Part shown: one piece after another, positions 345 through 35,637 of the stretch
Numbering within the stretch: the first letter of the stretch is position 1
Layout: every line of letters begins with the position of its first letter
Sequence record: OQ845958.1
DNA length: 64,000 bases
Strand: one strand, 5' to 3'
Source of the DNA: Escherichia phage pEC-M719-6WT.2
Notes under the pieces: generated by a model
What the model was told of the DNA's origin: nothing
Seen by the model: only the letters and a program-made list of their open reading frames with translations
Database searches by the model: none
Made by a program: the position numbers and the translations under genes

Positions 345-2155
345 TAAGCAATCCTTACCCAGCGATGAGCAATCAAATATGGAGGCATTGTATAAACTGG
401 TTGAGCTTGAGGGTCTTGCGCCTGATTAATGGTGGCTTTGTCTTCTCTGTATTTGGTATAGGCTGGACCTTGTGCATCTGGGTCTACCTGACAACCACCG
501 ACAACAATCGGACCATTATCATCAACAACTAAAACCTTCTCATCAGTTTCAAGTTTAGGTACGTTTATATCTTTAATATGAACTTCAACGCTACCACCTG
601 TACCACCTGCTGTCGCTTGTGGGTTACCACCAGAATCCAGGTCATTATTGTTTGTATGGAAGTTTGAGGCAGGGTCGTCTGACCAGGCAACAATTACACG
701 TTCTTTCAAACGTTTCCATGAACCAAATCCCATATAAGTAACCGGGTTATTTGGGTTAACTGTATTTTCGTAAATTGTACCGACCGGATAGAATAATTCA
801 AAGATAGCGCCAACAGAAGATGGAACAACTTCCTGAAGACCGACTGGTTCAACGTTTGGTGCAAACGGATTATCAAAATCTGTAATACGCACACGACCGG
901 TTAGGCTTAACGTATTTCCCTGAGAAACATAAAGAGTATCAGTCTCATCACGGATTTCATCCATGGTCATAGTTGTGCCGATATCGTTATTGTACCAAAT
1001 GACCGACAGAATATCACCGTCTTCAAATTCACGGTAAATGCTAATGCCTTCGATACGGTTATCATCATCAAATTGCAGCAAATAATCCTGGTTTGATTCA
1101 GACCAGCTACCACCATTTGCACTACATTCTGCAGCAGTAGAACCTTGTGCACCTTCACAATAAAATACTGGAGTTCCCGCAGTACCAGCTTGATGTTGCA
1201 AAATACTGTTAATGAATACCTGACATGCGTTTGGGTTAATTGGGCTACCCGGAGAAATACCAAGTTCTTCAATTGTAAAGGTGTGTTTGGTTGTCAAATC
1301 TGTAACAATCAAAGAACCATTAATTGTTGTTTCTTTGGTCCTGTCTTGACTACGAACAAGTATATCACGACGATTATACGAACTACGCCATTGAGCAATA
1401 CCATCATTAAATGTTCGGATGATAACAGTATCACCTTCAGCACATGGCATTTTCAGACGGATGCTTTTACCATCAAGCGCAACGATTTCACCAGGGTTTG
1501 CACCAGGGGAACCAAATTCAGCATTCACCGGGTCGAAAATATCATCTTTACCATAAAACAGGTCGTTACCACGATGTTTGACTTCTAAGTTCGATACGCT
1601 ATATGGAATAGCACCAAACACATTGATAAAGTCAGTTTGTCCTTCGGTGGCAATAAACTGTTGGGATGCAACTGTGGCAACGTCGTTATTTGAAATTTTA
1701 TCGACTTGTTTATTATCGATATATTCCCAACGACCTGGTGAACAATATACAAGTTCAAGGTCAGCTAAGTTGCGTTTAATTTCTACTGGATTCGGTGAGC
1801 CTTTAATCGTATCCCCAACTGCAGGAACAATTGTCACCGGGTTGATTTGCCAGGTAGCAAACACATCACGCAAGCGAATTACATAATTGTATTCTTGAGT
1901 TGTTCCTTTTGGAAGGATAACTCGAACTGCACCGGCTGATGTATCGATGGTATAGCTTCGACCCATAACAGCGGACAACTCGGTGCCTTCTTGCGTAGTC
2001 CAAGTTTTCCATGCACCAGCTGCATGGGGATTTTCACCGTCCCCTAGCTGATAATAAAGGTCATCAAAGTTATTATTTATTTTTTGACCGCCGAGACGAA
2101 GGTAATCACCAGTACCATCATCAACCATATTGCCAATTTTTAAATTCTGTTTCAT
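344..2155 (-). CDS. 10: baseplate wedge protein gp10
   Basis: 603-aa ORF, length and position (between 9 and 11) as in T4; identity by synteny and recalled similarity, no alignment run. Confidence 0.8.
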   Translation of the reverse strand: MKQNLKIGNMVDDGTGDYLRLGGQKINNNFDDLYYQLGDGENPHAAGAWKTWTTQEGTELSAVMGRSYTIDTSAGAVRVILPKGTTQEYNYVIRLRDVFATWQINPVTIVPAVGDTIKGSPNPVEIKRNLADLELVYCSPGRWEYIDNKQVDKISNNDVATVASQQFIATEGQTDFINVFGAIPYSVSNLEVKHRGNDLFYGKDDIFDPVNAEFGSPGANPGEIVALDGKSIRLKMPCAEGDTVIIRTFNDGIAQWRSSYNRRDILVRSQDRTKETTINGSLIVTDLTTKHTFTIEELGISPGSPINPNACQVFINSILQHQAGTAGTPVFYCEGAQGSTAAECSANGGSWSESNQDYLLQFDDDNRIEGISIYREFEDGDILSVIWYNNDIGTTMTMDEIRDETDTLYVSQGNTLSLTGRVRITDFDNPFAPNVEPVGLQEVVPSSVGAIFELFYPVGTIYENTVNPNNPVTYMGFGSWKRLKERVIVAWSDDPASNFHTNNNDLDSGGNPQATAGGTGGSVEVHIKDINVPKLETDEKVLVVDDNGPIVVGGCQVDPDAQGPAYTKYREDKATINQAQDPQAQPVYTMPPYLIAHRWVRIA

Positions 2156-3024
2156 TATACCGGTACTCCGATTGTTTGGGCGGAAATTACTTTAATAGCG
2201 AGCTTCATGGCAGTGGGTGAGCTTATAGCCGCCTGTATGATGTCCTGGTTATCAATTCTAAAATCGATAGCATATATCTCATCATCGTCGTTAGCTTGTC
2301 CACGTCTGATTACAGCGTATTCTGTGCTATATACCTTGCGGTCCTTAAGGTCGATGTAAAGTAACATTTCTGATGCTTTGTATTTAGTTTCGTCTGTTGA
2401 AATAGCCGTAAGCATCAATTTGATAGTTTTATAATCTGCGCGGTAAGCGATTGGAATATCACGAACAACCGAGCTCATATTGTATGTTTTGTCGAGCAAT
2501 ACAGATTGGTTACCAAACATACTTTCAATTTTGTAGTCCCAGGTCCCTACGCCGTTAGCATCGTCAATACACCACAATGTAATTTTTGTATAAGGCTGAG
2601 TAAATTTCATTTTGTTCGTTGCAGCGGTCAGGAATGAATCCGTGCCTTGTAGTTCAACTTCCAGAGGCATCGAGGTGGATAATGAACCATTGGAGTTAAT
2701 AAAGATAACACCTTCGCCTGCTTTACCTTTTGCAATTCTTGCGGTGATAACACCTTCGGCAGTATTGACATCACGCATAGAACCGAGAGCAACAGTTGAG
2801 TTCCATTCGATGATATTTGTAGCTTTTTGATAGTACCCAGTCGCATGAAGGACCTGGGTGTTTTCTCCATTGTTCACAGAGTACAGACGCTGGTCGCCAA
2901 ATGTATTATACAAACTGTCTAAATCCACGTTCAGTTTACGACCGCCTTCATATAGAATATCACCGGTGCTGGCGTTACCAATCTCGCCGATGTCTACTAA
3001 TAATTTTGGGGTTTGATTAATCAT
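2155..3024 (-). CDS. 9: baseplate wedge protein gp9 (long tail fibre socket)
   Basis: 289-aa ORF, T4-like length and position; preceded on minus strand by TATAAATA late promoter. Confidence 0.8.
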   Translation of the reverse strand: MINQTPKLLVDIGEIGNASTGDILYEGGRKLNVDLDSLYNTFGDQRLYSVNNGENTQVLHATGYYQKATNIIEWNSTVALGSMRDVNTAEGVITARIAKGKAGEGVIFINSNGSLSTSMPLEVELQGTDSFLTAATNKMKFTQPYTKITLWCIDDANGVGTWDYKIESMFGNQSVLLDKTYNMSSVVRDIPIAYRADYKTIKLMLTAISTDETKYKASEMLLYIDLKDRKVYSTEYAVIRRGQANDDDEIYAIDFRIDNQDIIQAAISSPTAMKLAIKVISAQTIGVPV

Positions 3025-3050
3025 AGGTAAGCCTCGTTATTGATATAGCT

Positions 3051-3058
3051 ATATTTAT
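3051..3058 (-). promoter_or_regulatory. late promoter box TATAAATA upstream of gene 9
   Basis: exact T4 late-promoter octamer on minus strand, about 25 nt upstream of gene 9 ATG. Confidence 0.55.
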
Positions 3059-3063
3059 AGAAT

Positions 3064-3085
3064 AAAAAAGGGACCCGAAGGTCCC
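3064..3085 (-). terminator. rho-independent terminator after gene 8
   Basis: GGGACC-CGAA-GGTCCC hairpin followed by U6 on minus strand, between gene 8 stop and gene 9 promoter. Confidence 0.6.
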
Positions 3086-3088
3086 TAG

Positions 3089-4093
3089 TTAGAATTCAAA
3101 AATAATGTTAACTTCTTCTGTCTGGTCCATTGCACGAATAATTGGTGGGCGGTTTTCCATATAAATCATTTCCCCAGAATGACGGTCCAAATCAATTGCA
3201 TCGTAGTATTCTTTGATTGCTTTGACATTTGGGTCATTAGGATGTACTTTAACTTCAAGTGGGTTGGATATAATCGACAGCTGTCGGAAGCCTTTGTTTC
3301 CCGGGAGACTGAATTCTGGGAAGTAAATGGAATCCATAAATGCTTTAAATCTGATTGTATATCCTTTGATTCTATATATTAAACCGAAATCATCTTGTTG
3401 CCAGCTGATATTGTCTTTGTAACCCCAACGTGACGGGTCTTCTTCGATTTCTTCAGGCCATGGAACAACAATATATTCGTTAGTACAGCGGTTGATGGAT
3501 ACATCAGGCGGAATCTCATACAAATATTCCCAGAGATAACCATCGCCCATATCAACTCGTCCTTCAGTGTCGCCAGTCCCTGCTGGAGCTCTCGTCGAGT
3601 TATATTCTGCCGTCCATTTACCACCGAGTTTTAAGCACTCTTCTTTATTGATAATGGAATAAATGGAGCAAGTCCCAACATCAGGAACATCTACACAACG
3701 ATAAACCATCCAACCTTTACCAACATCAGTTCGGTTATATGGAGCACTGTTAGCTACAACAATTTCCCCTACCTGGAAGTTAAGCGGATTAGGATATCTG
3801 ATATCGCCCCAGTCTTTACGTGGGACAACACAATCAAGCATTGATTTATAAACTTTGACTGCCCCCATCATATTGGTCCAAGTATCTTCAACACCTTGTG
3901 CTGTATCAACTGGATAAGGAGGGGCGAACCCCGGGTCATTCTCATTCGAAGCCCAAGGTTCAGCACGACCGAATGTTACATACATCGTATTCTGGTCGGG
4001 CTCGTTACCAATCATTTTATAAAAGTTATACATTTTTTCAGTTCGAAATTTCGAGGTAATTATCGAACGATAAACTACAGATGAATTATTCAT
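3089..4093 (-). CDS. 8: baseplate wedge protein gp8
   Basis: 334-aa ORF; N-terminus MNNSSVVYRSIITSKFRTEKM matches recalled T4 gp8; same length as T4 gp8. Confidence 0.9.
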   Translation of the reverse strand: MNNSSVVYRSIITSKFRTEKMYNFYKMIGNEPDQNTMYVTFGRAEPWASNENDPGFAPPYPVDTAQGVEDTWTNMMGAVKVYKSMLDCVVPRKDWGDIRYPNPLNFQVGEIVVANSAPYNRTDVGKGWMVYRCVDVPDVGTCSIYSIINKEECLKLGGKWTAEYNSTRAPAGTGDTEGRVDMGDGYLWEYLYEIPPDVSINRCTNEYIVVPWPEEIEEDPSRWGYKDNISWQQDDFGLIYRIKGYTIRFKAFMDSIYFPEFSLPGNKGFRQLSIISNPLEVKVHPNDPNVKAIKEYYDAIDLDRHSGEMIYMENRPPIIRAMDQTEEVNIIFEF

Positions 4094-7000
4094 TTACCTT
4101 TACCTGTGTTGGGTCTTTCGGGTCGCGTGGATTACCAATATCATCCTTAAGACGTTGATTAACCAAATTGCGCCAGTTAGCAAAAGTCACGGCAGACTGG
4201 TCAAACAATGGACTGTATTTTTTACGACGTTCAGACGGGAGAGTCCCATGAAAATCTGAAAAATCGTTTTCGGCATCATAATCTGCTGGTAATGGGAATG
4301 GTAAACCTGCATTAGGAGCAATATTATATACCGCTTCACCTGTAACAGGGCTACGCTCAATGTTTCCATCGGCCCCAATAACTGCGATACGGTCGCACCA
4401 TTCTGACGGAATACCTGACGACCAACGATAGTTGTTCAGTTTATTGATAATAGTTTCGGTATGTTTTAATGACAGACCAGCATTAACAAACATTGTCAAT
4501 AATGTAATTCCAACGAATCCAAATCCAACCGGATGAACAAATCGCAATACGTCATTACGATAACGAGATGTTGGGAGACTTGATTTAATGGTCATTACAT
4601 AGTAAGAACGATTTCGGTTGATATAATCGATGTTGTTGCTAAGTAATTCTTTCCCACGAACACCCTGAACAATCATACCTTCAAAGGAAGTCCTTTCGGA
4701 TTTAATTTCTTGCCCAACAATAAAGCGACCAAGTAAGTTATGAATCGTGATACGCCATCTCAATTTCCCCTGTTTGTAGTCACGTTCCATATAAGTAACG
4801 TTACTGCGACCAGTTGGTGTGTAAATTGTTTGTCCAACAATATCTTCGCTGATGTTATCAGATTCGACGATTATATCATACTCGGTTCCGTTCTTGGATT
4901 CAATATCGATTTCAACGTCTTCATTATATAACAATTTGAACAAAAACTTATAGGATGCTTCAGTACCCTTAGTGGACCAAAAATCAGACTGTCTTGCTTC
5001 AAAGAAACGAACTACTTCGTCGCGCTTGGTCTTTGACAAATATATGTTTCTTTTGTACATTTCGCTCCAAAGGTATTCCCATGCATCTTCCTCGCGCGGG
5101 TACTGGTTGCGAATTAAGTTCAAAAGGTTGTTATAATAGGTGCCAGAGCCATCACTGATAAACTGTAAATAATATTCACAGAATTTTTCGAAGTTGCTAT
5201 CCTGGAGCAAATAACTATCCGGAACCATCTTTGTTAAAAGAGGACGCAAGTCTGGGTCTTTCTCTTGTTCGTCATTATCTGGGGTCCATGGAATATCATG
5301 TTCCTGGTTCTGTAATTCTGCAGTGAACATAACTTCTTTCGGTTTCCAGATTAATCTAACTTCATCACGTCTACGATAGTCAAATTCAAAATAGCCAATA
5401 AGCTCTCCAGTATTTTTGTGTAACATAATACCCGAGGCGTATTTTTTAAAGCCATTGAATTCGATGTTAGGAGAAGTAACTTTTACTTGACCTTTATTCC
5501 AGTATTCGTGTACAATACGTTCAGGCGATGAACCACCAAAGGTATCGATAATCTTTTGATATAGCATGTCATTATATACAACCAGAGCTCTGTCTGATGT
5601 GGTAATCCAACAACGAGTATCATCACGACGAGACCAGTTAAAGAACGGTTCAGCGTAATATGACATACGACCAGGTTTAAACTCTTCCCAACCTGAATCT
5701 TTATTCGACCTAAAACTCATCATCAAATAATGCTTGTCATGTATCCATTGTTCGTCATACACATATTTGACTGCTTCATTAACTTCTTCAGGATACTTAG
5801 CAGGGAGTTCAGTATCCGGCTCTACGGAATAACGGAAGTTACTTGAACTGATAAAAAGTTCAATTCCGTCGGTTGACATGCTTGTGTAACCATGTTCAAT
5901 ACGTCGACGTTCATCCTCTGTGTTACCAAAAACTCGTGTCCATGTATCGGTGTCAGCATTTAATTTATAAACGCCCTTTGATAATGAATCGACAACGTTT
6001 TCAGGTTTAGTCGGGTCTTGTCGCTCTTCTTTTACTTCACCCGTGATTAATGCAAATACTTCACCATCAATTGCATCCATCTTATAACAAACAGCTTTGG
6101 GGTTACCACTTATTGTGCTATATCCAGCTTCAAATAATTTTTCACCGAATGTTGGGGAGTTGGGGTCGTTATCAATTGGAGCATCAGAAGATTTAGCTTT
6201 GTACACACGGTCGCGCCCGGCAACGTAAATCATGGAATCGGTCGTAGTGATTGCTTCAGCAATTGTCGAGATATAAGCAGGAAGTCTTGCGTATGTGCCA
6301 AATATTTCAATATCAAATCCAAGATTGATATCCGAACCAATTTTTGCAAATGTTATGTCCTGAGAACTGAATCGAACATCATCAGCAGACCATCTTATGT
6401 CACTTGATTTGCGACCGTAAAAAATTCGGTCATACCCGAGTACATAAGTTGTTGTATCTGATTGATAATAAATTGTGCGCGATACTGGGTTACCGATACG
6501 GTCATTAAACAATTTTACATAATACCAGTTCTGCCCTTTATCATTGGAGACTTTGACAGTTGTCTGGAATCGTTCAAACAAATACAGTACGCCACCGAGT
6601 TCAGCAATCATTGTACGATTAACATCGTTACATACCGGCTGAATGCTACCCTGGATTTCGTGGTATTGGTCTTCTTTTAATACATAGTTTGAAATTGAAG
6701 ACAAATGAGAATACGCAGGAGTAAAGCTAAAATCTTCAGACATCAGCGATGCCATAATTGCATCATTATTAAAGTTGATATAAGCTTGGTTATTGTTTGT
6801 AAATTTTTCTTCGATGAATTTATTTGTTAATGTAAATTCACGCATGTGCTCAAATGTGTATGCGTTAGTTGCAAAGGTTTCAAATTCTTCGGTATAAACC
6901 CAATCAGATTGTTCAAAACCCATTGCTGCAACAGCAACACGCATTTTGTAAAATGATACTGGACGAATAAAATCTTGTTCGAACCATTCATTGTCTGGAG

Positions 7001-7181
7001 TATAACCTAAATTCCTCCATAACAGATTTTCTTCTGGAATAGCAACACCATTTTCTTTTGTCGTAGCAATCTCAACAAAATAATAAAAGTTGGCGCCAAC
7101 ATTATCCCATTTTATGCTAACCTGGTTAGCAGATAGTTTATCAATCCGTAAGCTGGTTACATAAGGGGCTTTAACACTCAT
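4086..7181 (-). CDS. 7: baseplate wedge protein gp7
   Basis: start moved to second of two adjacent ATGs after SD AAGGAA (MSVKAPYVTSL...), giving 1031 aa, T4 gp7-like; ORF-track upstream extension would overlap gene 6. Confidence 0.85.
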   Translation of the reverse strand: MSVKAPYVTSLRIDKLSANQVSIKWDNVGANFYYFVEIATTKENGVAIPEENLLWRNLGYTPDNEWFEQDFIRPVSFYKMRVAVAAMGFEQSDWVYTEEFETFATNAYTFEHMREFTLTNKFIEEKFTNNNQAYINFNNDAIMASLMSEDFSFTPAYSHLSSISNYVLKEDQYHEIQGSIQPVCNDVNRTMIAELGGVLYLFERFQTTVKVSNDKGQNWYYVKLFNDRIGNPVSRTIYYQSDTTTYVLGYDRIFYGRKSSDIRWSADDVRFSSQDITFAKIGSDINLGFDIEIFGTYARLPAYISTIAEAITTTDSMIYVAGRDRVYKAKSSDAPIDNDPNSPTFGEKLFEAGYSTISGNPKAVCYKMDAIDGEVFALITGEVKEERQDPTKPENVVDSLSKGVYKLNADTDTWTRVFGNTEDERRRIEHGYTSMSTDGIELFISSSNFRYSVEPDTELPAKYPEEVNEAVKYVYDEQWIHDKHYLMMSFRSNKDSGWEEFKPGRMSYYAEPFFNWSRRDDTRCWITTSDRALVVYNDMLYQKIIDTFGGSSPERIVHEYWNKGQVKVTSPNIEFNGFKKYASGIMLHKNTGELIGYFEFDYRRRDEVRLIWKPKEVMFTAELQNQEHDIPWTPDNDEQEKDPDLRPLLTKMVPDSYLLQDSNFEKFCEYYLQFISDGSGTYYNNLLNLIRNQYPREEDAWEYLWSEMYKRNIYLSKTKRDEVVRFFEARQSDFWSTKGTEASYKFLFKLLYNEDVEIDIESKNGTEYDIIVESDNISEDIVGQTIYTPTGRSNVTYMERDYKQGKLRWRITIHNLLGRFIVGQEIKSERTSFEGMIVQGVRGKELLSNNIDYINRNRSYYVMTIKSSLPTSRYRNDVLRFVHPVGFGFVGITLLTMFVNAGLSLKHTETIINKLNNYRWSSGIPSEWCDRIAVIGADGNIERSPVTGEAVYNIAPNAGLPFPLPADYDAENDFSDFHGTLPSERRKKYSPLFDQSAVTFANWRNLVNQRLKDDIGNPRDPKDPTQVKVNE

Positions 7182-7197
7182 CATGGTTTCCTTAAAA

Positions 7198-7213
7198 AGC
7201 CTCCGAAGAGGCT
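7198..7213 (-). terminator. hairpin plus U5 between gene 6 and gene 7 (attenuator or mRNA stability element)
   Basis: AGCCTC-TTCG-GAGGCT hairpin followed by UUUUU on minus strand immediately before gene 7 SD. Confidence 0.4.
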
Positions 7214-9159
7214 TATAGTGTAATCGGTTCAAGGTCAATCTTTGTATATTGCGGACGAAGGTCATTCTCAAATACAATCAGTGAACCATCTTGCGTGTAT
7301 ATATTATCTTGGTTGGGACTTGCATAAAGTTCGATTGATTGAACTTCAAAGCGCTCGGATGTCAATCCAATCGCGGCGATATCCCAAAAAATATAGTCAG
7401 AGTAATAGTCAATTTCGCCAATTGCGTAATAAACTGTTTGGTCAGCCGGAGCTTCCATTTTATTAAAGTCATCTTGTAGGTAAGGCTGGATGTTTACGTT
7501 TTCGATAACATCACCCGGACGGAATGGACCAATTACCATTTTGCCATCACCACGAGAATCTTTATCAGTTGCAACAATGCGAACGTTATAGGCTTCACCC
7601 GTAGTCGGAACAAATTCAAATTCGCTTGATTCGACTGAACGGTTGCCATACTGGTTATAGTATTTAATGCCGGATTCCGGAGTCTTAAAGAAGTTCAGGA
7701 CCTCACGCACCATCGAAATGGTTGCAGACGAACCAAGAATACTATGGTCGGTATTATCCACATATGTAAGCATTTTTGACTTAGCAAAACTTCTGTTAAA
7801 GATTTCAACTTCATCGATATAATAACGGTCAATCTGATTAATGATTTGTGCTTGCAACCATTGTTCAGATTCTTGTAATTTGTTCAGCGCATAAGACACT
7901 TTGATATTATGTTTAAGGAACAAATAATCCGGAGAAATTACCGATGGTGTAATTGTTGATACGTTGAACTCGCTAAGGTAGTTCTGGATATCCTCACGCT
8001 GCACTGCAGTGAGATATAAGCCCGATTTAGGCTTAACTGATATAAACGCATACCCTGGTTTATTAGCGTCTGTAAACGTCTGTACGGCTTGCACGATTGA
8101 GCCAAATCTTTCGGATACGAAGGTATCATAATCCGTTCCGGTGACAGCACGCATCTGCGCTTCACGTTTAACAACAGCCAGTTCACGGATACGTTCGATA
8201 TCTTCTGGGTCACCACCACCATCAGCACCGACATAATCAGGGTCGTTATTATAGTTTTCGGTAATTTTATCCACTGTAATATAAGACAAAGTATCAGCAT
8301 AACTAAAATCAACAGCGCCGTTTGCATCTGCCCCGGAAGTACGAAGATACTCAATAACAATTGTTGAATCTTGCACAGGTTTAAGACCGCCAATATAGTT
8401 GGCTTCCATAACGCCACCGGCCACAGATTTAGTGGATTCACCTTCACCGAAGAAAAATTCGGTATAGCCATCAATTGTTTCACGCATATAAAATATGGTG
8501 GAAGTCGAACCAGCATGAACCATTGATTTGTTCGTCCAGTCATCCCACTCAACACCATTCACATATAACTTAACTTCTTTGCGGTCAATATCCGGGTCGC
8601 GGATAAGAATAGGTTGTTTCGGGTCATATAAAAGTTCCGTACGAATAATACGACCCTGTGCCAGAGATACAATCGGAAGGTATTGGTTGTTAATATCTTT
8701 AACCGCGATAACGTTTTCCGTGGTAACAAAAACATAAGGGTCAGCTGATGTATCACGAGCATAAGCCAGGAATTTAGTTCCTCGTGGGATTTCAATATTC
8801 GATGGTTGCAGAGCATGAGAACATGTCAACATAACCGAAGTCTTTGCAGCCGAGCGAGAAGATGGAAGATAACCATTATCCTGTGCAGCCTGAACAACTG
8901 AAGACCTTAAGTTTGCAGTTCCGATAAATGATTCGTAAACCGCCGTGTTAGCAAACTGCTGCATATACAATGTATTATATGCAAGCATATCAATCAGGAT
9001 ATTCATTCGCGAACCTACGAAATCATAATCCTTAAATTCATCCTGGCTTGATAACCAGTCGATGATATTCTTTTTAATTTCTTCAAACGTAGCTCCCACA
9101 AATACTTTTGGGATAGCGTTAACGGTTCTTGTTAATTGGTAATTCGTAGGAGTAGCCAT
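7213..9159 (-). CDS. 6: baseplate wedge protein gp6
   Basis: 648-aa ORF in the T4 position between 5.x and 7. Confidence 0.8.
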   Translation of the reverse strand: MATPTNYQLTRTVNAIPKVFVGATFEEIKKNIIDWLSSQDEFKDYDFVGSRMNILIDMLAYNTLYMQQFANTAVYESFIGTANLRSSVVQAAQDNGYLPSSRSAAKTSVMLTCSHALQPSNIEIPRGTKFLAYARDTSADPYVFVTTENVIAVKDINNQYLPIVSLAQGRIIRTELLYDPKQPILIRDPDIDRKEVKLYVNGVEWDDWTNKSMVHAGSTSTIFYMRETIDGYTEFFFGEGESTKSVAGGVMEANYIGGLKPVQDSTIVIEYLRTSGADANGAVDFSYADTLSYITVDKITENYNNDPDYVGADGGGDPEDIERIRELAVVKREAQMRAVTGTDYDTFVSERFGSIVQAVQTFTDANKPGYAFISVKPKSGLYLTAVQREDIQNYLSEFNVSTITPSVISPDYLFLKHNIKVSYALNKLQESEQWLQAQIINQIDRYYIDEVEIFNRSFAKSKMLTYVDNTDHSILGSSATISMVREVLNFFKTPESGIKYYNQYGNRSVESSEFEFVPTTGEAYNVRIVATDKDSRGDGKMVIGPFRPGDVIENVNIQPYLQDDFNKMEAPADQTVYYAIGEIDYYSDYIFWDIAAIGLTSERFEVQSIELYASPNQDNIYTQDGSLIVFENDLRPQYTKIDLEPITL

Positions 9160-29050: not shown

Positions 29051-29467
29051 ATGACTCGCATTAACTTAACCCTGGTGTCTGAACTCGCTGACCAACATCT
29101 TATGGCTGAATATCGTGAGCTTCCTCGCGTGTTTGGTGCTGTTCGTAAGCATGTACAAAATGGTAAAAAGGTTTCTGACTTTAAAATCCCATCATCTTTT
29201 CTTTTAGGGACTGGTCATGTCACCTTCTTTTATGATAAGCTTTTGTTCCTTAAAAACCGGCATCAAGAACTTATTGCAGAATGTTTAAAGCGAGGGTTTA
29301 ACATAAAAGATATTTCTACCCAAGACTTAACTGATATTCCTGATGAATGGAAGAATGATTATCAACCATCAATCTGGTCAATTGAAATCAGTCAAGCCAG
29401 ACTGAATGAGAAAATTTCTCAAAAGCCTGCTTGGTACAAATACTATGGGAAAGCTGTGTACGCTTAA
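29051..29467 (+). CDS. denV: pyrimidine-dimer DNA glycosylase endonuclease V
   Basis: [34 protein letters not shown] closely matches recalled T4 endo V; 138 aa. Confidence 0.95.
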
Positions 29468-29979: not shown

Positions 29980-30507
29980 ATGAAATTTTTAACTCCCATT
30001 TATCTAACCTTAATGCACGCCTTCGCTGAACGCGCCATTGAACGCTTAGATTCAGACCAATACACCTGGTATGAACCCGCTTCAAGAATGCAAGAGTTTG
30101 GTACTCTTAGACTTGACGGCGGAAGGCAAACAGGTAAAACAAGTGCCATTGCACAATTTGCTGCGGATTGGGTTTCTAAGGGTAATGATGTAATTGTTAT
30201 GTCGAGTTCTTCGCATCGCTCACGAGAAATCTGTGATATAATAAAGCGGGTTTCTAAAGCACAGCCACATCTTAATGTTGAACGACCTGGTTTTGTTGTA
30301 TATGATACTGTTCGTTCATTTTTAGATGAAGATCATTTTCACAAATATCGTGGACTGTCTGTTACCCGATTATTGATTATTATTGAAGAGCCTATTCGCC
30401 TACCAGCGATGGATAAGTTCTATGAAGCTTATCAGACAATGATGAATAAATTTATGTGCCAAGGTTCTAAACCTCTGCCACTGTTCTTTGTGATAGGAAT
30501 GCAATGA
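29980..30507 (+). CDS. P-loop (Walker A) protein of unknown function
   Basis: GGRQTGKTSA Walker A motif; 175 aa. Confidence 0.55.
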   Translation: MKFLTPIYLTLMHAFAERAIERLDSDQYTWYEPASRMQEFGTLRLDGGRQTGKTSAIAQFAADWVSKGNDVIVMSSSSHRSREICDIIKRVSKAQPHLNVERPGFVVYDTVRSFLDEDHFHKYRGLSVTRLLIIIEEPIRLPAMDKFYEAYQTMMNKFMCQGSKPLPLFFVIGMQ

Positions 30508-30800
30508 TGACTGATGAAGAACTTTTTGAGTTCTGCTATTTCTCACGTAAGGTCCGAAGAGAGGACCTTACTACAAATTTTGAATATGCTTATTTCTATC
30601 CATTAGAATATGTATTCATGTCAGGGCCCTTTAAGGGCTCTCGTTTTAGATGCCACGCTCCTAGTATCCGATTAATGAAACAGGTTCCTTACTTCACCCT
30701 CGAGTTCATCTCAGGGCCTTGTAAGGGCATTATAACTCGTAGTCTCTTGACGTATGACCAAGAGATTCATATGATTTCTGACTGGAAAAAATATGTCTAA
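30504..30800 (+). CDS. hypothetical protein with internal duplicated SGPxKG motif
   Basis: EYVFMSGPFKG and LEFISGPCKG repeats. Confidence 0.5.
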   Translation: MMTDEELFEFCYFSRKVRREDLTTNFEYAYFYPLEYVFMSGPFKGSRFRCHAPSIRLMKQVPYFTLEFISGPCKGIITRSLLTYDQEIHMISDWKKYV

Positions 30801-31007
30801 ATTGACTATTGAAGGTTCTGAAGAAGCTCTGAAGATGTTTGTTGACTGGTTCCACGAACAGGGCGAACAAGGCTTTATGGAATGTTGGGACGGTGGCCAA
30901 TGGAATGGTAAAGAAATTGTTTATCCGAGTACATATATCTCTGTTCGTGGCGGATATGATGGCCTTCGTTTGGTAGAATATGATAATGCATCTGATGAGG
31001 AAGTGAA

Positions 31008-31011
<4 letters not shown>
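30793..31011 (+). CDS. hypothetical acidic protein
   Basis: 72-aa ORF, overlap with neighbours. Confidence 0.5.
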
Positions 31012-31591
<580 letters not shown>

Positions 31592-31647
31592 TGTACAAGC
31601 AGGTTGAAATGAGTTATGATTATCCCATCAAACAAAAGGAGATAATC

Positions 31648-32106
31648 ATGACTACTATCGATTCAAGTGTTTACATTCGCCGCAATAAACTTCGTCGCAT
31701 TTTTGAAACGGAGTTCCTCAAAATTAATAATGCTATCAACAAGGCTTGTAAAGAAGCAGGCCTTGAGGCATTCTTCATTAAGTACAGTCCGCACCTGTTG
31801 GACCGTGCAATCCAACGTGAAATTGATGAACAATATGTTTTTGACTTGTTTGGAAAAATCACACCACATGTAAAAGAAATCGTTGAATTCCTGGAGATGA
31901 AACCACTCCCGGAAGTTGAAGCACAAATTGACCCGAATGTGAACTATCGTCCACTTCGTCTGGAAATCACAGACAAGAACCTGTGGTTAGGAATGACAGT
32001 TAACCCAGCTCTTCCTGGGAAGTCTCCGACCATGTGTTGTCGTATGGCGTTTGTTAACTCTAATCGTCTGGAAGGAAAAATTAGCACAAAAGTGATTTAT
32101 ATCTAA
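31648..32106 (+). CDS. regB: site-specific endoribonuclease RegB
   Basis: ...VYIRRNKLRRIFETEF...KYSPHLLDRAIQREIDEQYVFDLF... matches recalled T4 RegB; 152 aa. Confidence 0.85.
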   Translation: MTTIDSSVYIRRNKLRRIFETEFLKINNAINKACKEAGLEAFFIKYSPHLLDRAIQREIDEQYVFDLFGKITPHVKEIVEFLEMKPLPEVEAQIDPNVNYRPLRLEITDKNLWLGMTVNPALPGKSPTMCCRMAFVNSNRLEGKISTKVIYI

Positions 32107-32116
32107 TGGGGAATTC

Positions 32117-32659
32117 ATGAAAAAAGTAATCGCCACCTTACTATTGACAGTTAGTATGTCTGCCCATAGCGTAGAGCCTACTTTCAGTAATGAACAAATG
32201 GAGAACCTCCAATATGCTTATGCGTTTGGAGAACAGTTCCAGAAAAATGGTAAGTACAAAGAAAATCCGCACCAACATAATGGTTTGGGATATATCATGG
32301 CTGGTTTAACCTGGCAGGAAAGTTCTGCTGGGATTAATACTGGATTAAATAAAGATAAGCATCATGCATATGGTATATTCCAAAATTATCTTCCAACCGT
32401 GCGCGAACGCGTGAAACAGGTTGGGTGGACAATGACAGATAAAGAAATAATCAAGATGATAAGCAAGAGAGAGAACAGTGCACGCTGGGCTTATATTGAG
32501 CTTTCATATTGGTTGAATATTCATAAGGGGGATATAAGGAAAACACTATCATCATATAACGCAGGGTGGAATGTGAAAGCTGGTAATAAGTATGCTTCAC
32601 AGGTCCTAGAAAAAGCTAACTACTTAAAATCACGAGGCCTATTAAAAACGGTGGATTAA
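32117..32659 (+). CDS. secreted lytic transglycosylase-like protein
   Basis: N-terminal signal peptide; SLT motifs WQESSAG, AYGIFQ, SYNAGWN. Confidence 0.6.
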   Translation: MKKVIATLLLTVSMSAHSVEPTFSNEQMENLQYAYAFGEQFQKNGKYKENPHQHNGLGYIMAGLTWQESSAGINTGLNKDKHHAYGIFQNYLPTVRERVKQVGWTMTDKEIIKMISKRENSARWAYIELSYWLNIHKGDIRKTLSSYNAGWNVKAGNKYASQVLEKANYLKSRGLLKTVD

Positions 32660-32661
32660 AA

Positions 32662-33021
32662 ATGGTAAGAGTTATCACTTTAGCCATAGGGTTAGTATTC
32701 AGCATGGGAGGAATAGCTTCAGTACAGAGCGACGACAACAACAGCATCGTAGAATATGCAACGAGGACGGCTAAAGATTATTGCGCATCAAGCAATGTGG
32801 ATTGTGTAATCCGGTTCAGTGCCAAGCTCACCGCGGCATATAAAGATGGTCAAAATGATGTTGAACATACGCTTTTGAAAAAGAATGTATTATCCAACAA
32901 ATATGAAAAGAAATTATTTGAAATGGATTGCATTCTATCAAGTGCAAAATATAAGGCGGCCTGCACCAGTATGGTTGACAGGTTAGTGGATTCATATAAT
33001 AGAGGATTGAACTCTAAATGA
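32662..33021 (+). CDS. secreted protein of unknown function
   Basis: signal-peptide-like N-terminus MVRVITLAIGLVFSMGGIASVQS. Confidence 0.5.
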   Translation: MVRVITLAIGLVFSMGGIASVQSDDNNSIVEYATRTAKDYCASSNVDCVIRFSAKLTAAYKDGQNDVEHTLLKKNVLSNKYEKKLFEMDCILSSAKYKAACTSMVDRLVDSYNRGLNSK

Positions 33022-33482
33022 TTACCCAGTATATTAAGGGCGATATCGTCGCCCTCTTTCTTAGCGGTAAAAACATTGCTCATGGCTGTAATTGCTTCCA
33101 TACAATGGGCTCTGGAGTAGCTGGACAATTGGCGAAGGCTTATCCAAGGATTTTAGAAATAGACAAAACCACTACTGAATATGGTTCTCGTGATAAATTA
33201 GGCGATATGTCTATTGTTTTCAAATATTCCCGTGGTCCGTCAACTTGCTTTAATCTTTACACCCAATATGAACCAGGACCAAATCTCGACTATCACGCTT
33301 TAGTAAATTGTATGGTAGAATTAAATCGAGTCCTGAGTGAAGGAACACTATTCCGACCAGTGGTTTATATCCCACGGATTGGATGTGGTATTGCAGGTGG
33401 AGATTGGGAAAAGGTCTCTATGTTAATTGATATTTTTACCCCTGACATTGATTTGATAGTGGTGGATTATGAGCCTGAATGA
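33018..33482 (+). CDS. macro-domain protein (ADP-ribose binding/processing)
   Basis: macro motifs: IKGDI, NCFHTMGSGVAGQL (cf. NAANxxLxxGGGVxGAI), PRIGCGIAGG (cf. PAIGTGxxG). Confidence 0.65.
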   Translation: MITQYIKGDIVALFLSGKNIAHGCNCFHTMGSGVAGQLAKAYPRILEIDKTTTEYGSRDKLGDMSIVFKYSRGPSTCFNLYTQYEPGPNLDYHALVNCMVELNRVLSEGTLFRPVVYIPRIGCGIAGGDWEKVSMLIDIFTPDIDLIVVDYEPE

Positions 33483-33645
33483 AGAACAAGAACGTATTGT
33501 TGAAAACTTAGATAAGCTTATTCATTTAGCTAAAAAGGTGGCAGCTTTACAACCCCACGGCAGTAAAGAAGATTATGACCAAGCTGCCGAGGCTCTCAAG
33601 GCCCAACGAAAAAGAATTTTGGCTATGGACGGAATTGAATTATGA
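33469..33645 (+). CDS. small hypothetical protein (58 aa)
   Basis: below ORF-track cutoff; ATG overlapping macro gene 3' end, stop overlaps next ATG (ATGA). Confidence 0.4.
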   Translation: MSLNEEQERIVENLDKLIHLAKKVAALQPHGSKEDYDQAAEALKAQRKRILAMDGIEL

Positions 33646-33848
33646 GCCAAGCCCGAATTCTTAAAACGGCCAAATGTGAAAAATGTGAATGGCCAGTAAT
33701 CGCAGCTTTATGCAACGATGAAATGGAATGTGAATTTGATTACTGGTGGTACTGTTCCAATAAAGGGTGCATTAATCATAAGGGTGAAGGTTTTCATTCT
33801 GGTTATTGCGAACATCCTAAATTTGTGCGATATGGTGAACCGAAATGA
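33642..33848 (+). CDS. small Cys-rich protein
   Basis: 68 aa with CEKCEW...CEFDYWWYC...CINH...YCEHP metal-binding-like pattern. Confidence 0.5.
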   Translation: MSQARILKTAKCEKCEWPVIAALCNDEMECEFDYWWYCSNKGCINHKGEGFHSGYCEHPKFVRYGEPK

Positions 33849-34030
33849 GTTTAAGTATTAGTCAGAAAAGTAGATTGTTTGAGCTTATCCATGAGCTTTT
33901 GGAAGAGCACGCAGAAGCAAACGCTTTTTACGATGAATATGGCCCGATAGACGCCGACCATCAGGAAGAATTTGCTAATCGATTTGATGCGAAAGAAAAC
34001 GAATTAATAGCTTATGTGAATACGCTTTAA
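33845..34030 (+). CDS. hypothetical protein
   Basis: 61-aa ORF, ATGA overlap. Confidence 0.45.
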   Translation: MSLSISQKSRLFELIHELLEEHAEANAFYDEYGPIDADHQEEFANRFDAKENELIAYVNTL

Positions 34031-34039
34031 GAAGGTGAT

Positions 34040-34612
34040 ATGGCGAGTTTAATTTATCATTACGCAGCAATGAATGCAGGCAAAACAGCTTCATTGCTGA
34101 CTGCAGCTTATTCCTATAAAGAGCGTGGAATGAGTGTGCTTTTGCTAAAACCTGTTATTGATAATCGGGACTCGGAATCTGAAATCAAATCACGTATTGG
34201 TATTAGCCAGGAAGCAAACCTGGTAACGGCCGACATGAACCTGTTTGAATTCTATAAATGGGCCGAGTCTCAAAAGGATATCCATTGTGTCCTGGTCGAT
34301 GAAGCTCAATTTTTGTTACCAGAGCAAATTGACCAGTTAGCTCAAGTGGTTGATAATTACAATATCCCCGTTATGTGTTACGGGTTAAGAACAGATTTTC
34401 GGGGTCAATTATTTCCCGGTTCAGCCAGACTTCTGGCTATTTCGGATAAACTGGTTGAATTAAAGGGCGTCTGTCATTGCGGCCGGAAAGCAACCATGAC
34501 CGCGAGAGTAATCGACGGTGCTGCTGTAAAGGACGGCGAGCAAGTGTTAGTCGGTGGGAATGAATCGTACGTATCTTTATGCAGAAAACATTGGCTCGAA
34601 TTAACAAGCTGA
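34040..34612 (+). CDS. tk: thymidine kinase
   Basis: MASLIYHYAAMNAGKTASLL...VCHCGRKATMTARV... matches recalled T4 Tk. Confidence 0.95.
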   Translation: MASLIYHYAAMNAGKTASLLTAAYSYKERGMSVLLLKPVIDNRDSESEIKSRIGISQEANLVTADMNLFEFYKWAESQKDIHCVLVDEAQFLLPEQIDQLAQVVDNYNIPVMCYGLRTDFRGQLFPGSARLLAISDKLVELKGVCHCGRKATMTARVIDGAAVKDGEQVLVGGNESYVSLCRKHWLELTS

Positions 34613-34619
34613 GGTTCGC

Positions 34620-34895
34620 ATGGTATACAAGGTTTGGACGTATATCTCTATTTTTGTTATTGCTGGAATTGCATTTATTCCCACACAAACAGATAGCGAG
34701 AGATATGAAAGGGAAATTGAAATAGTAGCAAGCACGTACCATTCTGTTAATAAAGAATGCCCGAATAAAAATGGAATAAATTTACAAAAATCACATTATA
34801 TGCTGACTGTTACTAGTCCAGTGCAAAGAATATGGGTTGATAGACATTTTTCTGATTTATTTGCAATGTATTGTTTCAAATTTAAAAGATTATAA
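34620..34895 (+). CDS. membrane-anchored hypothetical protein
   Basis: 91 aa, N-terminal TM segment. Confidence 0.5.
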   Translation: MVYKVWTYISIFVIAGIAFIPTQTDSERYEREIEIVASTYHSVNKECPNKNGINLQKSHYMLTVTSPVQRIWVDRHFSDLFAMYCFKFKRL

Positions 34896-34898
34896 ATA
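34891..34898 (+). promoter_or_regulatory. late promoter box TATAAATA upstream of rI
   Basis: exact octamer overlapping upstream stop, about 70 nt before rI ATG. Confidence 0.45.
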
Positions 34899-34970
34899 CA
34901 GTTACTAACTAGTATTCCGCTATGTTAAGGCTGCAAAGCGTAATCATGACCAACAATAAGGAGTCCTTTT

Positions 34971-35264
34971 ATGGACCTTATTCGAGGACTTTCTCTAAGT
35001 CTATTACTAATGGGCTGTTTAGGCCCAAATATGTCCTCTGCTACAGATGGTAAATTTACCCAGTATGCAGATAGTGCGATGCAAATCTATTCGCAATTCA
35101 AAGAACCCAGCGTCGAGCAGTCCGAACAATTTTGGGCTTTTATTAAAACTGAATGGAACAATAAGAGTCAATGTGTAAATGAAATCACATGTCAAATTGA
35201 TGGCCGTGCGGCTGCAGTCGAATACGCTAAATTAATGAAGGTAAAATTGGAAGATGAAATTTGA
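34971..35264 (+). CDS. rI: lysis inhibition regulator RI (periplasmic antiholin)
   Basis: 97 aa as T4 RI; signal-anchor N-terminus; SVEQSEQFWAF and C-terminal KLEDEI resemble recalled T4 RI. Confidence 0.75.
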   Translation: MDLIRGLSLSLLLMGCLGPNMSSATDGKFTQYADSAMQIYSQFKEPSVEQSEQFWAFIKTEWNNKSQCVNEITCQIDGRAAAVEYAKLMKVKLEDEI

Positions 35265-35637
35265 TGATTTCGTAACGGGTCGTGGGTCTGAGGTGGATTC
35301 ATATATTGGGTGGTTGTTAGTCTCTTTGGCTTATTTTAAATCCGCCCATCTTGAAACCAAAAGTTACGCCCGCCATAAAGCTTATGATTTCTACTTCACA
35401 GAAATCCAAGGTCCACTCGACCAGTTCAGTGAGCAATGGTTAGGTTACAGCGGGAAACAATACAAAGCTGCATTACCGTCCGCCTCGGACTTGCCGAAAG
35501 ATACAATTTTGTTTTTAGATGAAATGATTAAAAGCTCGGAAAGAGTCTATAAAGTTGTACCTAAGGCTATTCAATCGACTCTGGACGATATCGTTGGAGT
35601 TTTCTTTCAAACTAAGTATCTGTTAACACTAGAGTAA
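35254..35637 (+). CDS. hypothetical protein
   Basis: 127-aa ORF overlapping rI 3' end; followed by terminator. Confidence 0.5.
   Translation: MKFDDFVTGRGSEVDSYIGWLLVSLAYFKSAHLETKSYARHKAYDFYFTEIQGPLDQFSEQWLGYSGKQYKAALPSASDLPKDTILFLDEMIKSSERVYKVVPKAIQSTLDDIVGVFFQTKYLLTLE

What the first reader, a model, noticed from the sequence alone, without database searches (positions are those of the whole stretch)
33018..33482. Macro-domain protein inserted between the vs region and tk
The 154-aa protein has the macro-domain signature blocks (IKGDI; NCFHTMGSGVAGQL; PRIGCGIAGG). Macro domains bind or hydrolyse ADP-ribose conjugates. Several bacterial defenses ADP-ribosylate DNA or proteins, so a phage macro domain is a plausible reversal enzyme. 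I do not recall a macro domain at this locus in T4.
Basis: partly seen in the sequence, partly recalled or inferred. Interest (0 to 1): 0.65.

Follow-up and report, generated by a model that had tools for sequence, protein, structure and literature searches.

The report
T4 tk.4 (AdfM) macrodomain ortholog
This gene is the counterpart of the phage T4 gene tk.4, which sits in the same place in T4, has been recognised as a macro domain since 2006, and was shown in 2025 to protect T4 from a bacterial defence that ADP-ribosylates DNA, so the finding is real but not new.

Summary
The ORF at 33018-33482 (+, 154 aa) is real and all three quoted motifs are present. It is a macro domain. Pfam Macro scores above its gathering cut-off, PHROG 335 matches at E 1.5e-65, and the AlphaFold model (pLDDT 95.4) matches TARG1, Poa1p, BT1257, DarG and SCO6735.

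The claim that it is "inserted" and absent from this locus in T4 is wrong. It is the ortholog of T4 tk.4 (58% identity over the full length), in the same position: regB, vs.1, vs, tk.4, small ORFs, tk. About 2,750 phage records carry a homolog.

A 2025 preprint shows that T4 lacking tk.4 becomes sensitive to DarTG2, and renames the gene adfM.

One detail was not stated in the papers read. The family has an invariant Gln (Q83) where DarG has its catalytic Lys80 and TARG1 its Lys84. The His, Asn and Gly that matter in SCO6735 are also conserved. It is therefore a SCO6735/BT1257-like enzyme, distinct from the DarG-like, Lys-type PhiKZ protein that is also called AdfM.

Verdict: already known, low interest.

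The parts
33018..33482 (+). tk.4 / adfM ortholog CDS: a 154-aa single-domain macrodomain protein (stop codon included)
   Evidence: ORF list. Pfam Macro at 29.3 bits, above the gathering cut-off of 22. PHROG 335 at E 1.5e-65. 58% identity to T4 Tk.4 over the full length. AF2 pLDDT 95.4. Foldseek against PDB gives TARG1, Poa1p, BT1257, DarG and SCO6735, all at probability 1.00.
33081..33131 (+). Loop 1 / catalytic-site block HGCNCFHTMGSGVAGQL (aa 22-38). H22, G23 and N25 correspond to SCO6735 His24, Val25 and Asn27.
   Evidence: H22, G23, N25 and C26 are present in 119 of 121 aligned sequences; the other 2 have a gap there (invariant). The pairwise alignment to SCO6735 (5e3b) places AHGCN on AHVCN. 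Asn27 is essential in SCO6735 and the equivalent Asn matters in DarG (PMC9411070). The equivalent N23A mutation lowers PhiKZ AdfM activity (PMC13309987).
33252..33266 (+). NLYTQ block (aa 79-83). Q83 occupies the position of the catalytic Lys of DarG (K80) and TARG1 (K84), and of the essential Gln85 of SCO6735.
   Evidence: N79, Y81 and Q83 are invariant in 121 of 121 sequences. The profile alignment to TARG1 puts 'tq' on 'TK'. hhalign to PhiKZ gp104 puts Q83 on the K of FPTK. The alignment to SCO6735 puts it on the Q of IGQ. SCO6735 Q85A/E lose all activity.
33372..33407 (+). Loop 2 / diphosphate-binding block PRIGCGIAGGDW (aa 119-130). G124 corresponds to SCO6735 Gly128. A126 sits where TARG1 has its catalytic Asp125.
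   Evidence: P119, I121, G122, G124 and W130 are invariant or nearly so. The block aligns to PRIGCGLAGG of BT1257 and SCO6735, and to PRIGCGLDRLQW of TARG1. G128E impairs SCO6735.
33018..33021 (+). ATGA overlap: the tk.4 start codon overlaps the vs stop codon. This arrangement usually indicates translational coupling within one transcription unit.
   Evidence: Read directly from the sequence. The same 4-nt vs/tk.4 overlap exists in T4 (tk.4 ends at 61389, vs begins at 61386). The 3' end of tk.4 overlaps the next ORF by 14 nt (33469-33482).
32662..33021 (+). vs ortholog (valyl-tRNA synthetase modifier), the upstream neighbour that fixes the synteny
   Evidence: PHROG 1256 at E 2e-32. tblastn to T4 vs gives 45% identity, E 9e-26.
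34040..34612 (+). tk ortholog (thymidine kinase), the downstream anchor of the synteny
   Evidence: PHROG 592 at E 6e-85. 71% identity to T4 tk.

Best explanation
The ORF is the ortholog of T4 tk.4, recently renamed adfM (anti-DarT factor Macrodomain). It is a free-standing 154-aa macrodomain of the ALC1/TARG1-like class. The proposed mechanism is as follows. The protein is made from the regB, vs.1, vs, tk.4, tk gene string. It binds the ADP-ribose that the host toxin DarT2 attaches to thymidine in TNTC motifs of single-stranded phage DNA. It hydrolyses the ribose-thymine bond, restoring replicable DNA and releasing free ADP-ribose. In effect it acts as an orphan antitoxin carried by the phage. 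The active site is of the SCO6735/BT1257 type, not the DarG type. An invariant Gln (Q83) replaces the catalytic Lys. N25, H22, G23 and G124 match residues studied in SCO6735: Asn27 (essential), Gly128 (important), His24 (tested) and Val25 (proposed). Catalysis is therefore probably Lys-independent, using a Gln-positioned substrate and an activated water, as proposed for SCO6735. What is shown here: the fold, the orthology, the synteny and the residue conservation. What is shown by others for T4: the genetic requirement against DarTG2. What is inferred: that the function transfers to this 58%-identical ortholog, that hydrolysis rather than binding is the basis, and the catalytic mechanism.
For: Fold and family: Pfam Macro is above its cut-off. 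The AF2 model has pLDDT 95.4. The top Foldseek PDB hits are TARG1 (E 2.5e-9, TM 0.77/0.84), Poa1p, BT1257 and the Mtb and Taq DarG macrodomains; SCO6735 also matches, at rank 24 (E 4e-6). The profile search ranks BT1257 1.6e-19, TARG1 1.1e-17, SCO6735 1.3e-16, Poa1p 6.8e-15 and DarG 1e-13. Orthology: 58% identity over the full length to T4 Tk.4, with the same neighbours in the same order. Function of the ortholog: T4 tk.4 was the single significant hit of a transposon screen on a DarTG2 host, and a clean knockout became DarTG2-sensitive (10.1101/2025.11.20.689424). Biochemical precedent for the Gln-type site: SCO6735 removes DarT-made thymidine-ADPr from DNA in vitro and rescues cells from DarT, and its Q85A and N27 mutants are dead (PMC9411070). 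This activity was confirmed on synthetic substrates (PMC12879935). Conservation: Q83, N79 and Y81 are invariant in 121 of 121 sequences; H22, G23 and N25 are present in 119 of 121, the other 2 having a gap.
Against: No experiment exists on this protein or on any Gaprivervirus-type ortholog. The T4 result is from a preprint and is genetic only: no catalytic mutant and no in vitro assay was described in the text read. T4 Tk.4 differs in the diphosphate loop (PRIGAGIGKGNW against PRIGCGIAGGDW here), so the tested protein is a minority variant (K at position 127 in 3 of 121 sequences). The long Lys-rich mobile loop that SCO6735 is thought to use as a DNA clamp is 5-6 residues shorter here and carries no Lys (gaps). 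SCO6735 also acts on proteins, and its catalytically dead mutant inhibits DarT by binding it, so DNA hydrolysis need not be the only activity.
Confidence: 0.75

Rival explanations
1. It is a protein or RNA de-ADP-ribosylase. It would erase or tune the marks made by the phage's own ADP-ribosyltransferases (Alt, ModA, ModB in T-even phages), or by other host ADP-ribosylating toxins. DarT2 reversal would be a side activity or one of several.
For: The top structural match is TARG1, a protein Glu/Asp-ADPr hydrolase. SCO6735, which has the closest characterised active site, hydrolyses both protein and DNA substrates. The family is far more widespread in phages than a single defence would seem to require: 2,753 records, including Pseudomonas, Vibrio, Acinetobacter and Bacillus phages. 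That T-even phages encode Alt, ModA and ModB is from my own knowledge and was not checked in this window.
Against: In the T4 screens read, tk.4 came up specifically with DarTG2. The TARG1 Lys/Asp dyad used for protein substrates is absent: Q83 and A126 occupy those positions.
Confidence: 0.12
2. It is an ADP-ribose-1''-phosphate phosphatase (Poa1p-like). This is the basis of the 'phosphatase' label the gene carries in RefSeq and PHROGs.
For: Yeast Poa1p structures are among the best matches (6lfr, E 1.6e-8, TM 0.81; profile E 6.8e-15). Database labels read 'phosphatase' and 'A1pp phosphatase motif'.
Against: The label comes from the old name of the domain (A1pp), not from an assay. From my own knowledge, no source of Appr-1''-p is known in T-even infection. 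The label does not explain the DarTG2 phenotype of the T4 ortholog.
Confidence: 0.05
3. It protects without catalysis. It would bind and block DarT2 directly, or sequester ADP-ribose-containing molecules, using the macro fold only as a binding module.
For: Catalytically dead SCO6735 Q85A inhibits DarT by interaction, more strongly than DarG or TARG1 mutants. No catalytic mutant of T4 Tk.4 was reported in the text read.
Against: The residues needed for hydrolysis in SCO6735 (Asn, Gln, Gly) are invariant across 121 diverse homologs, which points to selection on chemistry. A phage protein that had to bind many divergent DarT2 variants would be expected to vary at its surface and would not need an intact active site. 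The protein lacks the C-terminal DarT-binding domain of DarG (154 aa; NF048014 match covers only profile positions 19-148 of 338).
Confidence: 0.05
4. It is an O-acetyl-ADP-ribose deacetylase or RNase III regulator (YmdB-like), as some metagenome pipelines name its relatives.
For: JGI names several homologs 'O-acetyl-ADP-ribose deacetylase (regulator of RNase III)'. The PDB depositors call TARG1 OARD1 and Mtb DarG 'RNase III inhibitor'.
Against: These are automatic COG-derived names. No YmdB/MacroD-class structure appears among the 15 sequence-profile hits or above the ALC1-like class in the fold search.
Confidence: 0.03

Closest known systems
Phage T4 Tk.4 = AdfM (anti-DarT factor Macrodomain), NP_049723
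   Same: It is the ortholog: 58% identity over the full length, the same size (154 against 155 aa) and the same position between vs and the small tk.x ORFs. It has the same 4-nt overlap with vs and belongs to the same PHROG 335. It shares H22, N25, the NLYTQ block and P/I/G/G/W of loop 2.
   Different: The loop 2 sequence differs (PRIGCGIAGGDW here, PRIGAGIGKGNW in T4). The small ORFs downstream are partly different. The anti-DarTG2 phenotype has been shown only for T4.
Streptomyces coelicolor SCO6735 (PDB 5E3B) and Bacteroides BT1257 (2FG1/2AFC): Gln-type ALC1-like macrodomains
   Same: These are the best sequence matches in the PDB. Gln sits at the catalytic-Lys position. The His-x-Cys-Asn and PRIGCG(L/I)AGG blocks are the same. 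All are stand-alone single-domain proteins with no adjacent DarT (bacterial homolog context). SCO6735 is a proven thymidine-ADPr DNA hydrolase.
   Different: Identity is only about 24-29%. The mobile loop after the Gln is 5-6 residues shorter here and lacks the two Lys residues proposed to clamp DNA. SCO6735 and BT1257 are cellular proteins, not phage ones.
DarG antitoxin macrodomain (Mtb 5M3I, T. aquaticus 5M31/5M3E; NCBIfam NF048014)
   Same: Same fold class (Foldseek E 2.8e-8, TM 0.75). Same expected substrate, the DarT2 product. The conserved Asn and Gly-rich loops are present.
   Different: Gln replaces the catalytic Lys80. There is no C-terminal DarT-binding domain and no darT neighbour. 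The NF048014 score is 27.9 bits against a cut-off of 250.
PhiKZ gp104, also named AdfM (Cell Rep 2026, PMC13309987)
   Same: It is a phage-encoded stand-alone macrodomain that counters DarTG2. Removal of DarT2-made ADP-ribose from DNA was shown in vitro.
   Different: It belongs to a different subclass. It is 22% identical, carries the DarG-type FPTK Lys motif and matches Mtb DarG at E 9.4e-25, against 6.5e-7 for the window protein. It is imported into the phage nucleus. The shared name hides two separate acquisitions or lineages.
Human TARG1/OARD1 (4J5R/4J5S)
   Same: It is the best structural match (E 2.5e-9, TM 0.77/0.84) and also cleaves thymidine-ADPr DNA.
   Different: TARG1 uses a Lys84/Asp125 dyad. 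The window protein has Q83 and A126 at those positions. TARG1 lacks the canonical Asn that is present here.
T4 AdfN (gene 30.3, NADAR) and AdfA (61.2)
   Same: Same strategy: a phage-borne orphan enzyme that undoes DarT DNA ADP-ribosylation (PMC11825919).
   Different: The NADAR fold is unrelated. AdfN acts on guanine-ADPr made by DarT1, not thymidine-ADPr made by DarT2.

Membership tests
Macro domain superfamily (Pfam PF01661) | Profile score above the curated gathering cut-off | tested here: met
   29.3 bits against a cut-off of 22, E 9e-7, covering profile positions 2-115 of 118.
Macro domain superfamily (Pfam PF01661) | Three-layer alpha/beta/alpha fold with a central mixed beta-sheet | tested here: met
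   The AF2 model has pLDDT 95.4 and pTM 0.90, with 7 strands and 5 helices. 175 PDB chains match at E <= 1e-3. The listed matches are macrodomains, plus designed serine hydrolases (OSH55 series).
Macro domain superfamily (Pfam PF01661) | Conserved Asn plus two Gly-rich ADP-ribose-binding loops | tested here: met
   N25, G31/G33 and G122/G124/G127/G128 are invariant or nearly invariant. They align to the same blocks in ADP-ribose-bound TARG1, and in BT1257 and SCO6735.
Macro domain superfamily (Pfam PF01661) | Binds ADP-ribose or its conjugates | not testable with these tools
   This needs ITC, a crystal soak or an activity assay.
T-even Tk.4 / AdfM orthologous group (PHROG 335) | Full-length similarity to T4 Tk.4 | tested here: met
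   58% identity over 154 aligned positions, E 1e-70. PHROG 335 at E 1.5e-65.
T-even Tk.4 / AdfM orthologous group (PHROG 335) | Conserved position immediately downstream of vs and upstream of tk | tested here: met
   The order regB, vs.1, vs, tk.4, small ORFs, tk, rI is seen in the window and in T4, and in UPEC07.
T-even Tk.4 / AdfM orthologous group (PHROG 335) | Required for phage growth on DarTG2-carrying hosts | not testable with these tools
   This has been shown only for T4.
SCO6735/BT1257-like (Gln-type) ALC1-like macrodomains | Gln in place of the DarG/TARG1 catalytic Lys | tested here: met
   Q83 aligns to SCO6735 Gln85, TARG1 K84 and the FPTK Lys of PhiKZ gp104. It is invariant in 121 of 121 sequences.
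SCO6735/BT1257-like (Gln-type) ALC1-like macrodomains | His24, Val25, Asn27 and Gly128 equivalents | tested here: met
   H22, G23 (where the backbone carbonyl is the proposed role), N25 and G124.
SCO6735/BT1257-like (Gln-type) ALC1-like macrodomains | Mobile loop after the Gln that is 5 residues longer, with Lys89 and Lys93 | tested here: not met
   The window protein has a 5-6-residue gap in this loop relative to SCO6735 and BT1257, and no Lys (QYEPGPN).
SCO6735/BT1257-like (Gln-type) ALC1-like macrodomains | Hydrolysis of thymidine-linked ADP-ribose on ssDNA | not testable with these tools
   This needs a biochemical assay.
DarG antitoxin (NCBIfam NF048014 equivalog) | Equivalog score above the cut-off | tested here: not met
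   27.9 bits against a cut-off of 250.
DarG antitoxin (NCBIfam NF048014 equivalog) | Catalytic Lys (K80) in the FPTK motif | tested here: not met
   Q83 is at that position.
DarG antitoxin (NCBIfam NF048014 equivalog) | C-terminal DarT-binding domain and an adjacent darT gene | tested here: not met
   The 154-aa protein matches only profile positions 19-148 of 338. Its neighbours are vs and a 58-aa ORF.
TARG1-type protein ADP-ribosyl hydrolase | Lys84/Asp125 catalytic dyad | tested here: not met
   Q83 and A126 occupy these positions.

The most novel reading that the evidence does not exclude
The T-even Tk.4 family is a mechanistically separate, Gln-type (SCO6735-like) eraser that phages acquired independently of the DarG-like, Lys-type AdfM of PhiKZ. 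Like SCO6735, it might be a dual DNA and protein (or RNA) de-ADP-ribosylase. It could then counter more than DarT2, or also balance the phage's own Alt/ModA/ModB activity. The present 'DarG homolog' description of T4 AdfM would then be incomplete.
Probability: 0.2. Interest if true: 0.45.

Novelty: already known. Interest (0 to 1): 0.15.

Why it matters
It matters little as a discovery. The gene, its domain and its conserved position have been in the T4 annotation for two decades. Its likely role as an anti-DarTG2 factor was reported in 2025.

The useful outputs here are corrections and a refinement:
- The gene is not an insertion relative to T4.
- The widespread 'phosphatase' label comes from the old name of the domain (A1pp), with no assay found behind it.
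- The T-even AdfM has a Gln-type active site like SCO6735, unlike the Lys-type PhiKZ AdfM and DarG. This predicts different mutational sensitivities (Q83 and N25 rather than a Lys) and possibly a broader substrate range.

Tried and rejected
- Promoter and terminator consensus scan of 30500-35500: 14 promoter-like sites against 14.3 expected from shuffles, so it is uninformative for defining the transcription unit.
- A terminator-like hairpin flagged inside the CDS (33037-33055) was examined. It is conserved in T4, but the encoded peptide KGDIVAL is conserved too, so no separate role can be claimed.
- DarG membership was rejected on score, on the catalytic Lys and on domain architecture.
- A bacterial toxin-antitoxin origin was checked through two homolog contexts. 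The Pelagimonas copy stands alone among housekeeping genes with no DarT nearby, and the other sits in a phage-like contig. Neither gives evidence of a cognate toxin.
- A literature search for the Poa1p structure paper did not return it, so the Poa1p comparison rests on PDB titles and scores only.
- NCBIfam gave nothing for the neighbouring small ORFs.

Full report
**Observation.** The ORF is exactly as described: ATG at 33018, TGA ending at 33482, + strand, 154 aa. All three quoted motifs are present: IKGDI at aa 6-10, NCFHTMGSGVAGQL at aa 25-38 and PRIGCGIAGG at aa 119-128. The start codon overlaps the stop codon of the upstream gene (ATGA, 33018-33021). The 3' end overlaps the next ORF by 14 nt. 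The gene is therefore embedded in a tightly packed same-strand gene string.

**Is it a macro domain?** Yes.
- Pfam Macro (PF01661) scores 29.3 bits against a gathering cut-off of 22, across nearly the whole profile.
- PHROG 335 matches at E 1.5e-65.
- Sequence search of the PDB finds BT1257 (2FG1/2AFC), SCO6735 (5E3B), yeast Poa1p, the Mtb DarG macrodomain (5M3I) and human TARG1.
- With a 51-sequence family profile these strengthen to BT1257 1.6e-19, TARG1 1.1e-17, SCO6735 1.3e-16, Poa1p 6.8e-15 and DarG 1e-13.
- An AlphaFold2 model built on that alignment is very confident (pLDDT 95.4, pTM 0.90).
- Foldseek against the PDB returns TARG1 (E 2.5e-9, TM 0.77/0.84), Poa1p, BT1257 and Mtb and T. 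aquaticus DarG near the top. SCO6735 follows at rank 24, among the viral Mac1-type macrodomains.

**Is it an insertion that T4 lacks?** No.
- The window is a Tevenvirinae genome closest to Gaprivervirus phages: ECML-359 and UPEC07 at about 95% nucleotide identity, SP18 and VR20 at about 91-92%.
- In T4 (NC_000866) the gene directly downstream of vs is tk.4. It encodes a 155-aa protein annotated 'phosphatase; contains A1pp phosphatase motif'.
- The window protein is 58% identical to T4 Tk.4 over its full length (E 1e-70).
- tblastn of the window's ORFs against T4 56-64 kb gives collinear matches for regB, vs.1, vs, tk.4, tk.2, tk, rI and rI.-1.
- Nolan et al. 2006 already listed tk.4 as a conserved T4-like ORF matching the A1pp (macro) domain (PMC1524935).
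- Homologs occur in 2,753 phage records, 2,390 of them near full length. These include Klebsiella, Salmonella, Pseudomonas, Vibrio, Acinetobacter and Bacillus phages.
- What varies in the vs-tk interval is the set of tiny ORFs after tk.4, not tk.4 itself.

- In the HIDEN-SEQ preprint (10.1101/2025.11.20.689424), a T4 transposon library infecting a DarTG2-expressing host gave tk.4 as the single significant hit. A clean tk.4 knockout sensitised T4 to DarTG2.
- The authors renamed the gene adfM. By analogy with the NADAR enzyme AdfN, which counters DarTG1 (PMC11825919), they inferred that it removes ADP-ribose from DNA.
- The text read describes no in vitro assay and no catalytic mutant for T4 Tk.4. 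Hydrolysis is therefore inferred there, and also here.

**Active-site type.** This detail was not stated in the papers read.
- The family alignment has invariant H22, G23, N25, C26, N79, Y81, T82, Q83, P119, I121, G122, G124 and W130.
- In a 121-sequence alignment Q83, N79 and Y81 are present in every sequence. H22 and N25 are present in every sequence that covers them.
- Q83 falls on the catalytic Lys84 of TARG1, on the FPTK lysine of the DarG-like PhiKZ gp104 and on Gln85 of SCO6735.
- Hlousek-Kasun et al. 2022 (PMC9411070) showed that SCO6735 lacks the Lys and Asp of DarG and TARG1 yet efficiently removes DarT-made thymidine-ADPr from DNA and rescues cells from DarT.
- In that study Q85A/E and the Asn27 mutant are dead and G128E is impaired. 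A water-mediated mechanism involving Val25 and Gln85 was proposed.
- The window protein carries the equivalents of all of these: H22, G23, N25, Q83 and G124. A126 sits where TARG1 has Asp125.
- It therefore works like SCO6735 and BT1257 rather than like DarG.
- It fails DarG membership on three tested features: an NF048014 score of 27.9 against a cut-off of 250, no catalytic Lys, and no C-terminal DarT-binding domain or darT neighbour.
- It also departs from SCO6735 in one respect. The 'mobile loop' after the Gln is 5-6 residues shorter and carries no lysine.

**Two proteins named AdfM.** PhiKZ gp104 was independently named AdfM (PMC13309987) and was shown in vitro to remove DarT2-made ADP-ribose from DNA. 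It is a DarG-type macrodomain. It matches Mtb DarG at E 9.4e-25 and carries the FPTK motif. It is only 22% identical to the window protein. The shared name therefore covers two macrodomain subclasses, Lys-type and Gln-type, that converge on the same defence.

**Context of cellular homologs.** A Pelagimonas chromosomal homolog stands alone among housekeeping genes with no toxin gene beside it. Another distant homolog sits in a phage-like contig with UvsY and an RNA ligase. This fits an 'orphan' enzyme rather than half of a toxin-antitoxin pair.

**Rivals.**
- A broader or different substrate, meaning protein or RNA ADP-ribose and possibly the phage's own Alt/Mod marks, is not excluded. SCO6735 is dual-specific and TARG1 is the best structural match. 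However, the TARG1 dyad is absent and the only genetic phenotype known is against DarTG2.
- The 'phosphatase' label is a historical domain name, and no assay behind it was found in the sources read.
- Binding-only protection is conceivable, because dead SCO6735 inhibits DarT. The strict conservation of the catalytic residues argues for chemistry.
- The 'O-acetyl-ADP-ribose deacetylase / RNase III regulator' names are pipeline artefacts.

**Verdict.** The functional guess is good but already published for the ortholog. The 'inserted, not in T4' premise is wrong. Novelty: already known. Interest: low. The modest residual value is the recognition that T-even AdfM is a Gln-type, SCO6735-like enzyme.

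Noticed in passing
window 33037-33055 (+): There is a perfect 8-bp hairpin, AGGGCGATATCGTCGCCCT, 20 nt into the tk.4 coding sequence, followed by a T-rich run. It was flagged as terminator-like. It is conserved in T4 tk.4 apart from one loop base, and in UPEC07. The RNA fold of 32995-33075 gives -21.1 kcal/mol, z = -2.8. It may only reflect the conserved peptide KGDIVAL. Separately, a 2026 preprint reports that the host sRNA ArcZ contacts the T2 tk.4 transcript in RIL-seq.
   Followed up: partly
window 33469-33645, 33642-33848 and 34620-34895 (+): Two of the three small ORFs between tk.4 and tk (58 aa and 68 aa) have no tblastn match (E < 0.01) in the T4 vs-mobD interval. The same is true of a 91-aa ORF just after tk, where T4 has rI.1. 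Only the 61-aa ORF at 33845-34030 matches T4, at tk.2 (48% identity). The 58-, 68- and 61-aa ORFs belong to PHROGs of unknown function; the 91-aa ORF was not scanned. This is the variable part of the interval.
   Followed up: partly
window 27708-28199 (+): A NUDIX hydrolase gene (Pfam E 1.3e-14) sits next to the lysozyme gene e (28226-28717) and denV (29051-29467). This is the position of T4 nudE/e.1, about 5 kb upstream of tk.4 on the same strand. T4 NudE.1 is reported to hydrolyse ADP-ribose (Xu et al. 2002, seen in the reference list). It could dispose of the ADP-ribose released by the macrodomain. This is speculation and was not tested.
   Followed up: no
L002 (T4) 4923-5390, compared with window 33372-33407: T4 Tk.4, the only family member with a phenotype, has an atypical diphosphate loop: PRIGAGIGKGNW. 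The family consensus, which the window protein has, is PRIGCGIAGGDW. Lys at position 127 occurs in only 3 of 121 sequences.
   Followed up: partly
literature: There is a naming collision: 'AdfM' is used for both T4 Tk.4 (Gln-type) and PhiKZ gp104 (DarG-like, Lys-type). These are only distantly related; the window ortholog of Tk.4 is 22% identical to gp104. Separately, a 2026 preprint describes T2 tk.4 as a 'putative thymidine kinase', which misreads the gene name.
   Followed up: yes
L001 (UPEC07) 1-9000: The GenBank annotation of the nearest relative carries propagated mislabels. Several unrelated small ORFs are called 'endoribonuclease', 'thymidine kinase', 'valyl-tRNA synthetase modifier' or 'MobD molybdopterin biosynthesis protein'. 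Product names in this region should not be trusted without checking.
   Followed up: no
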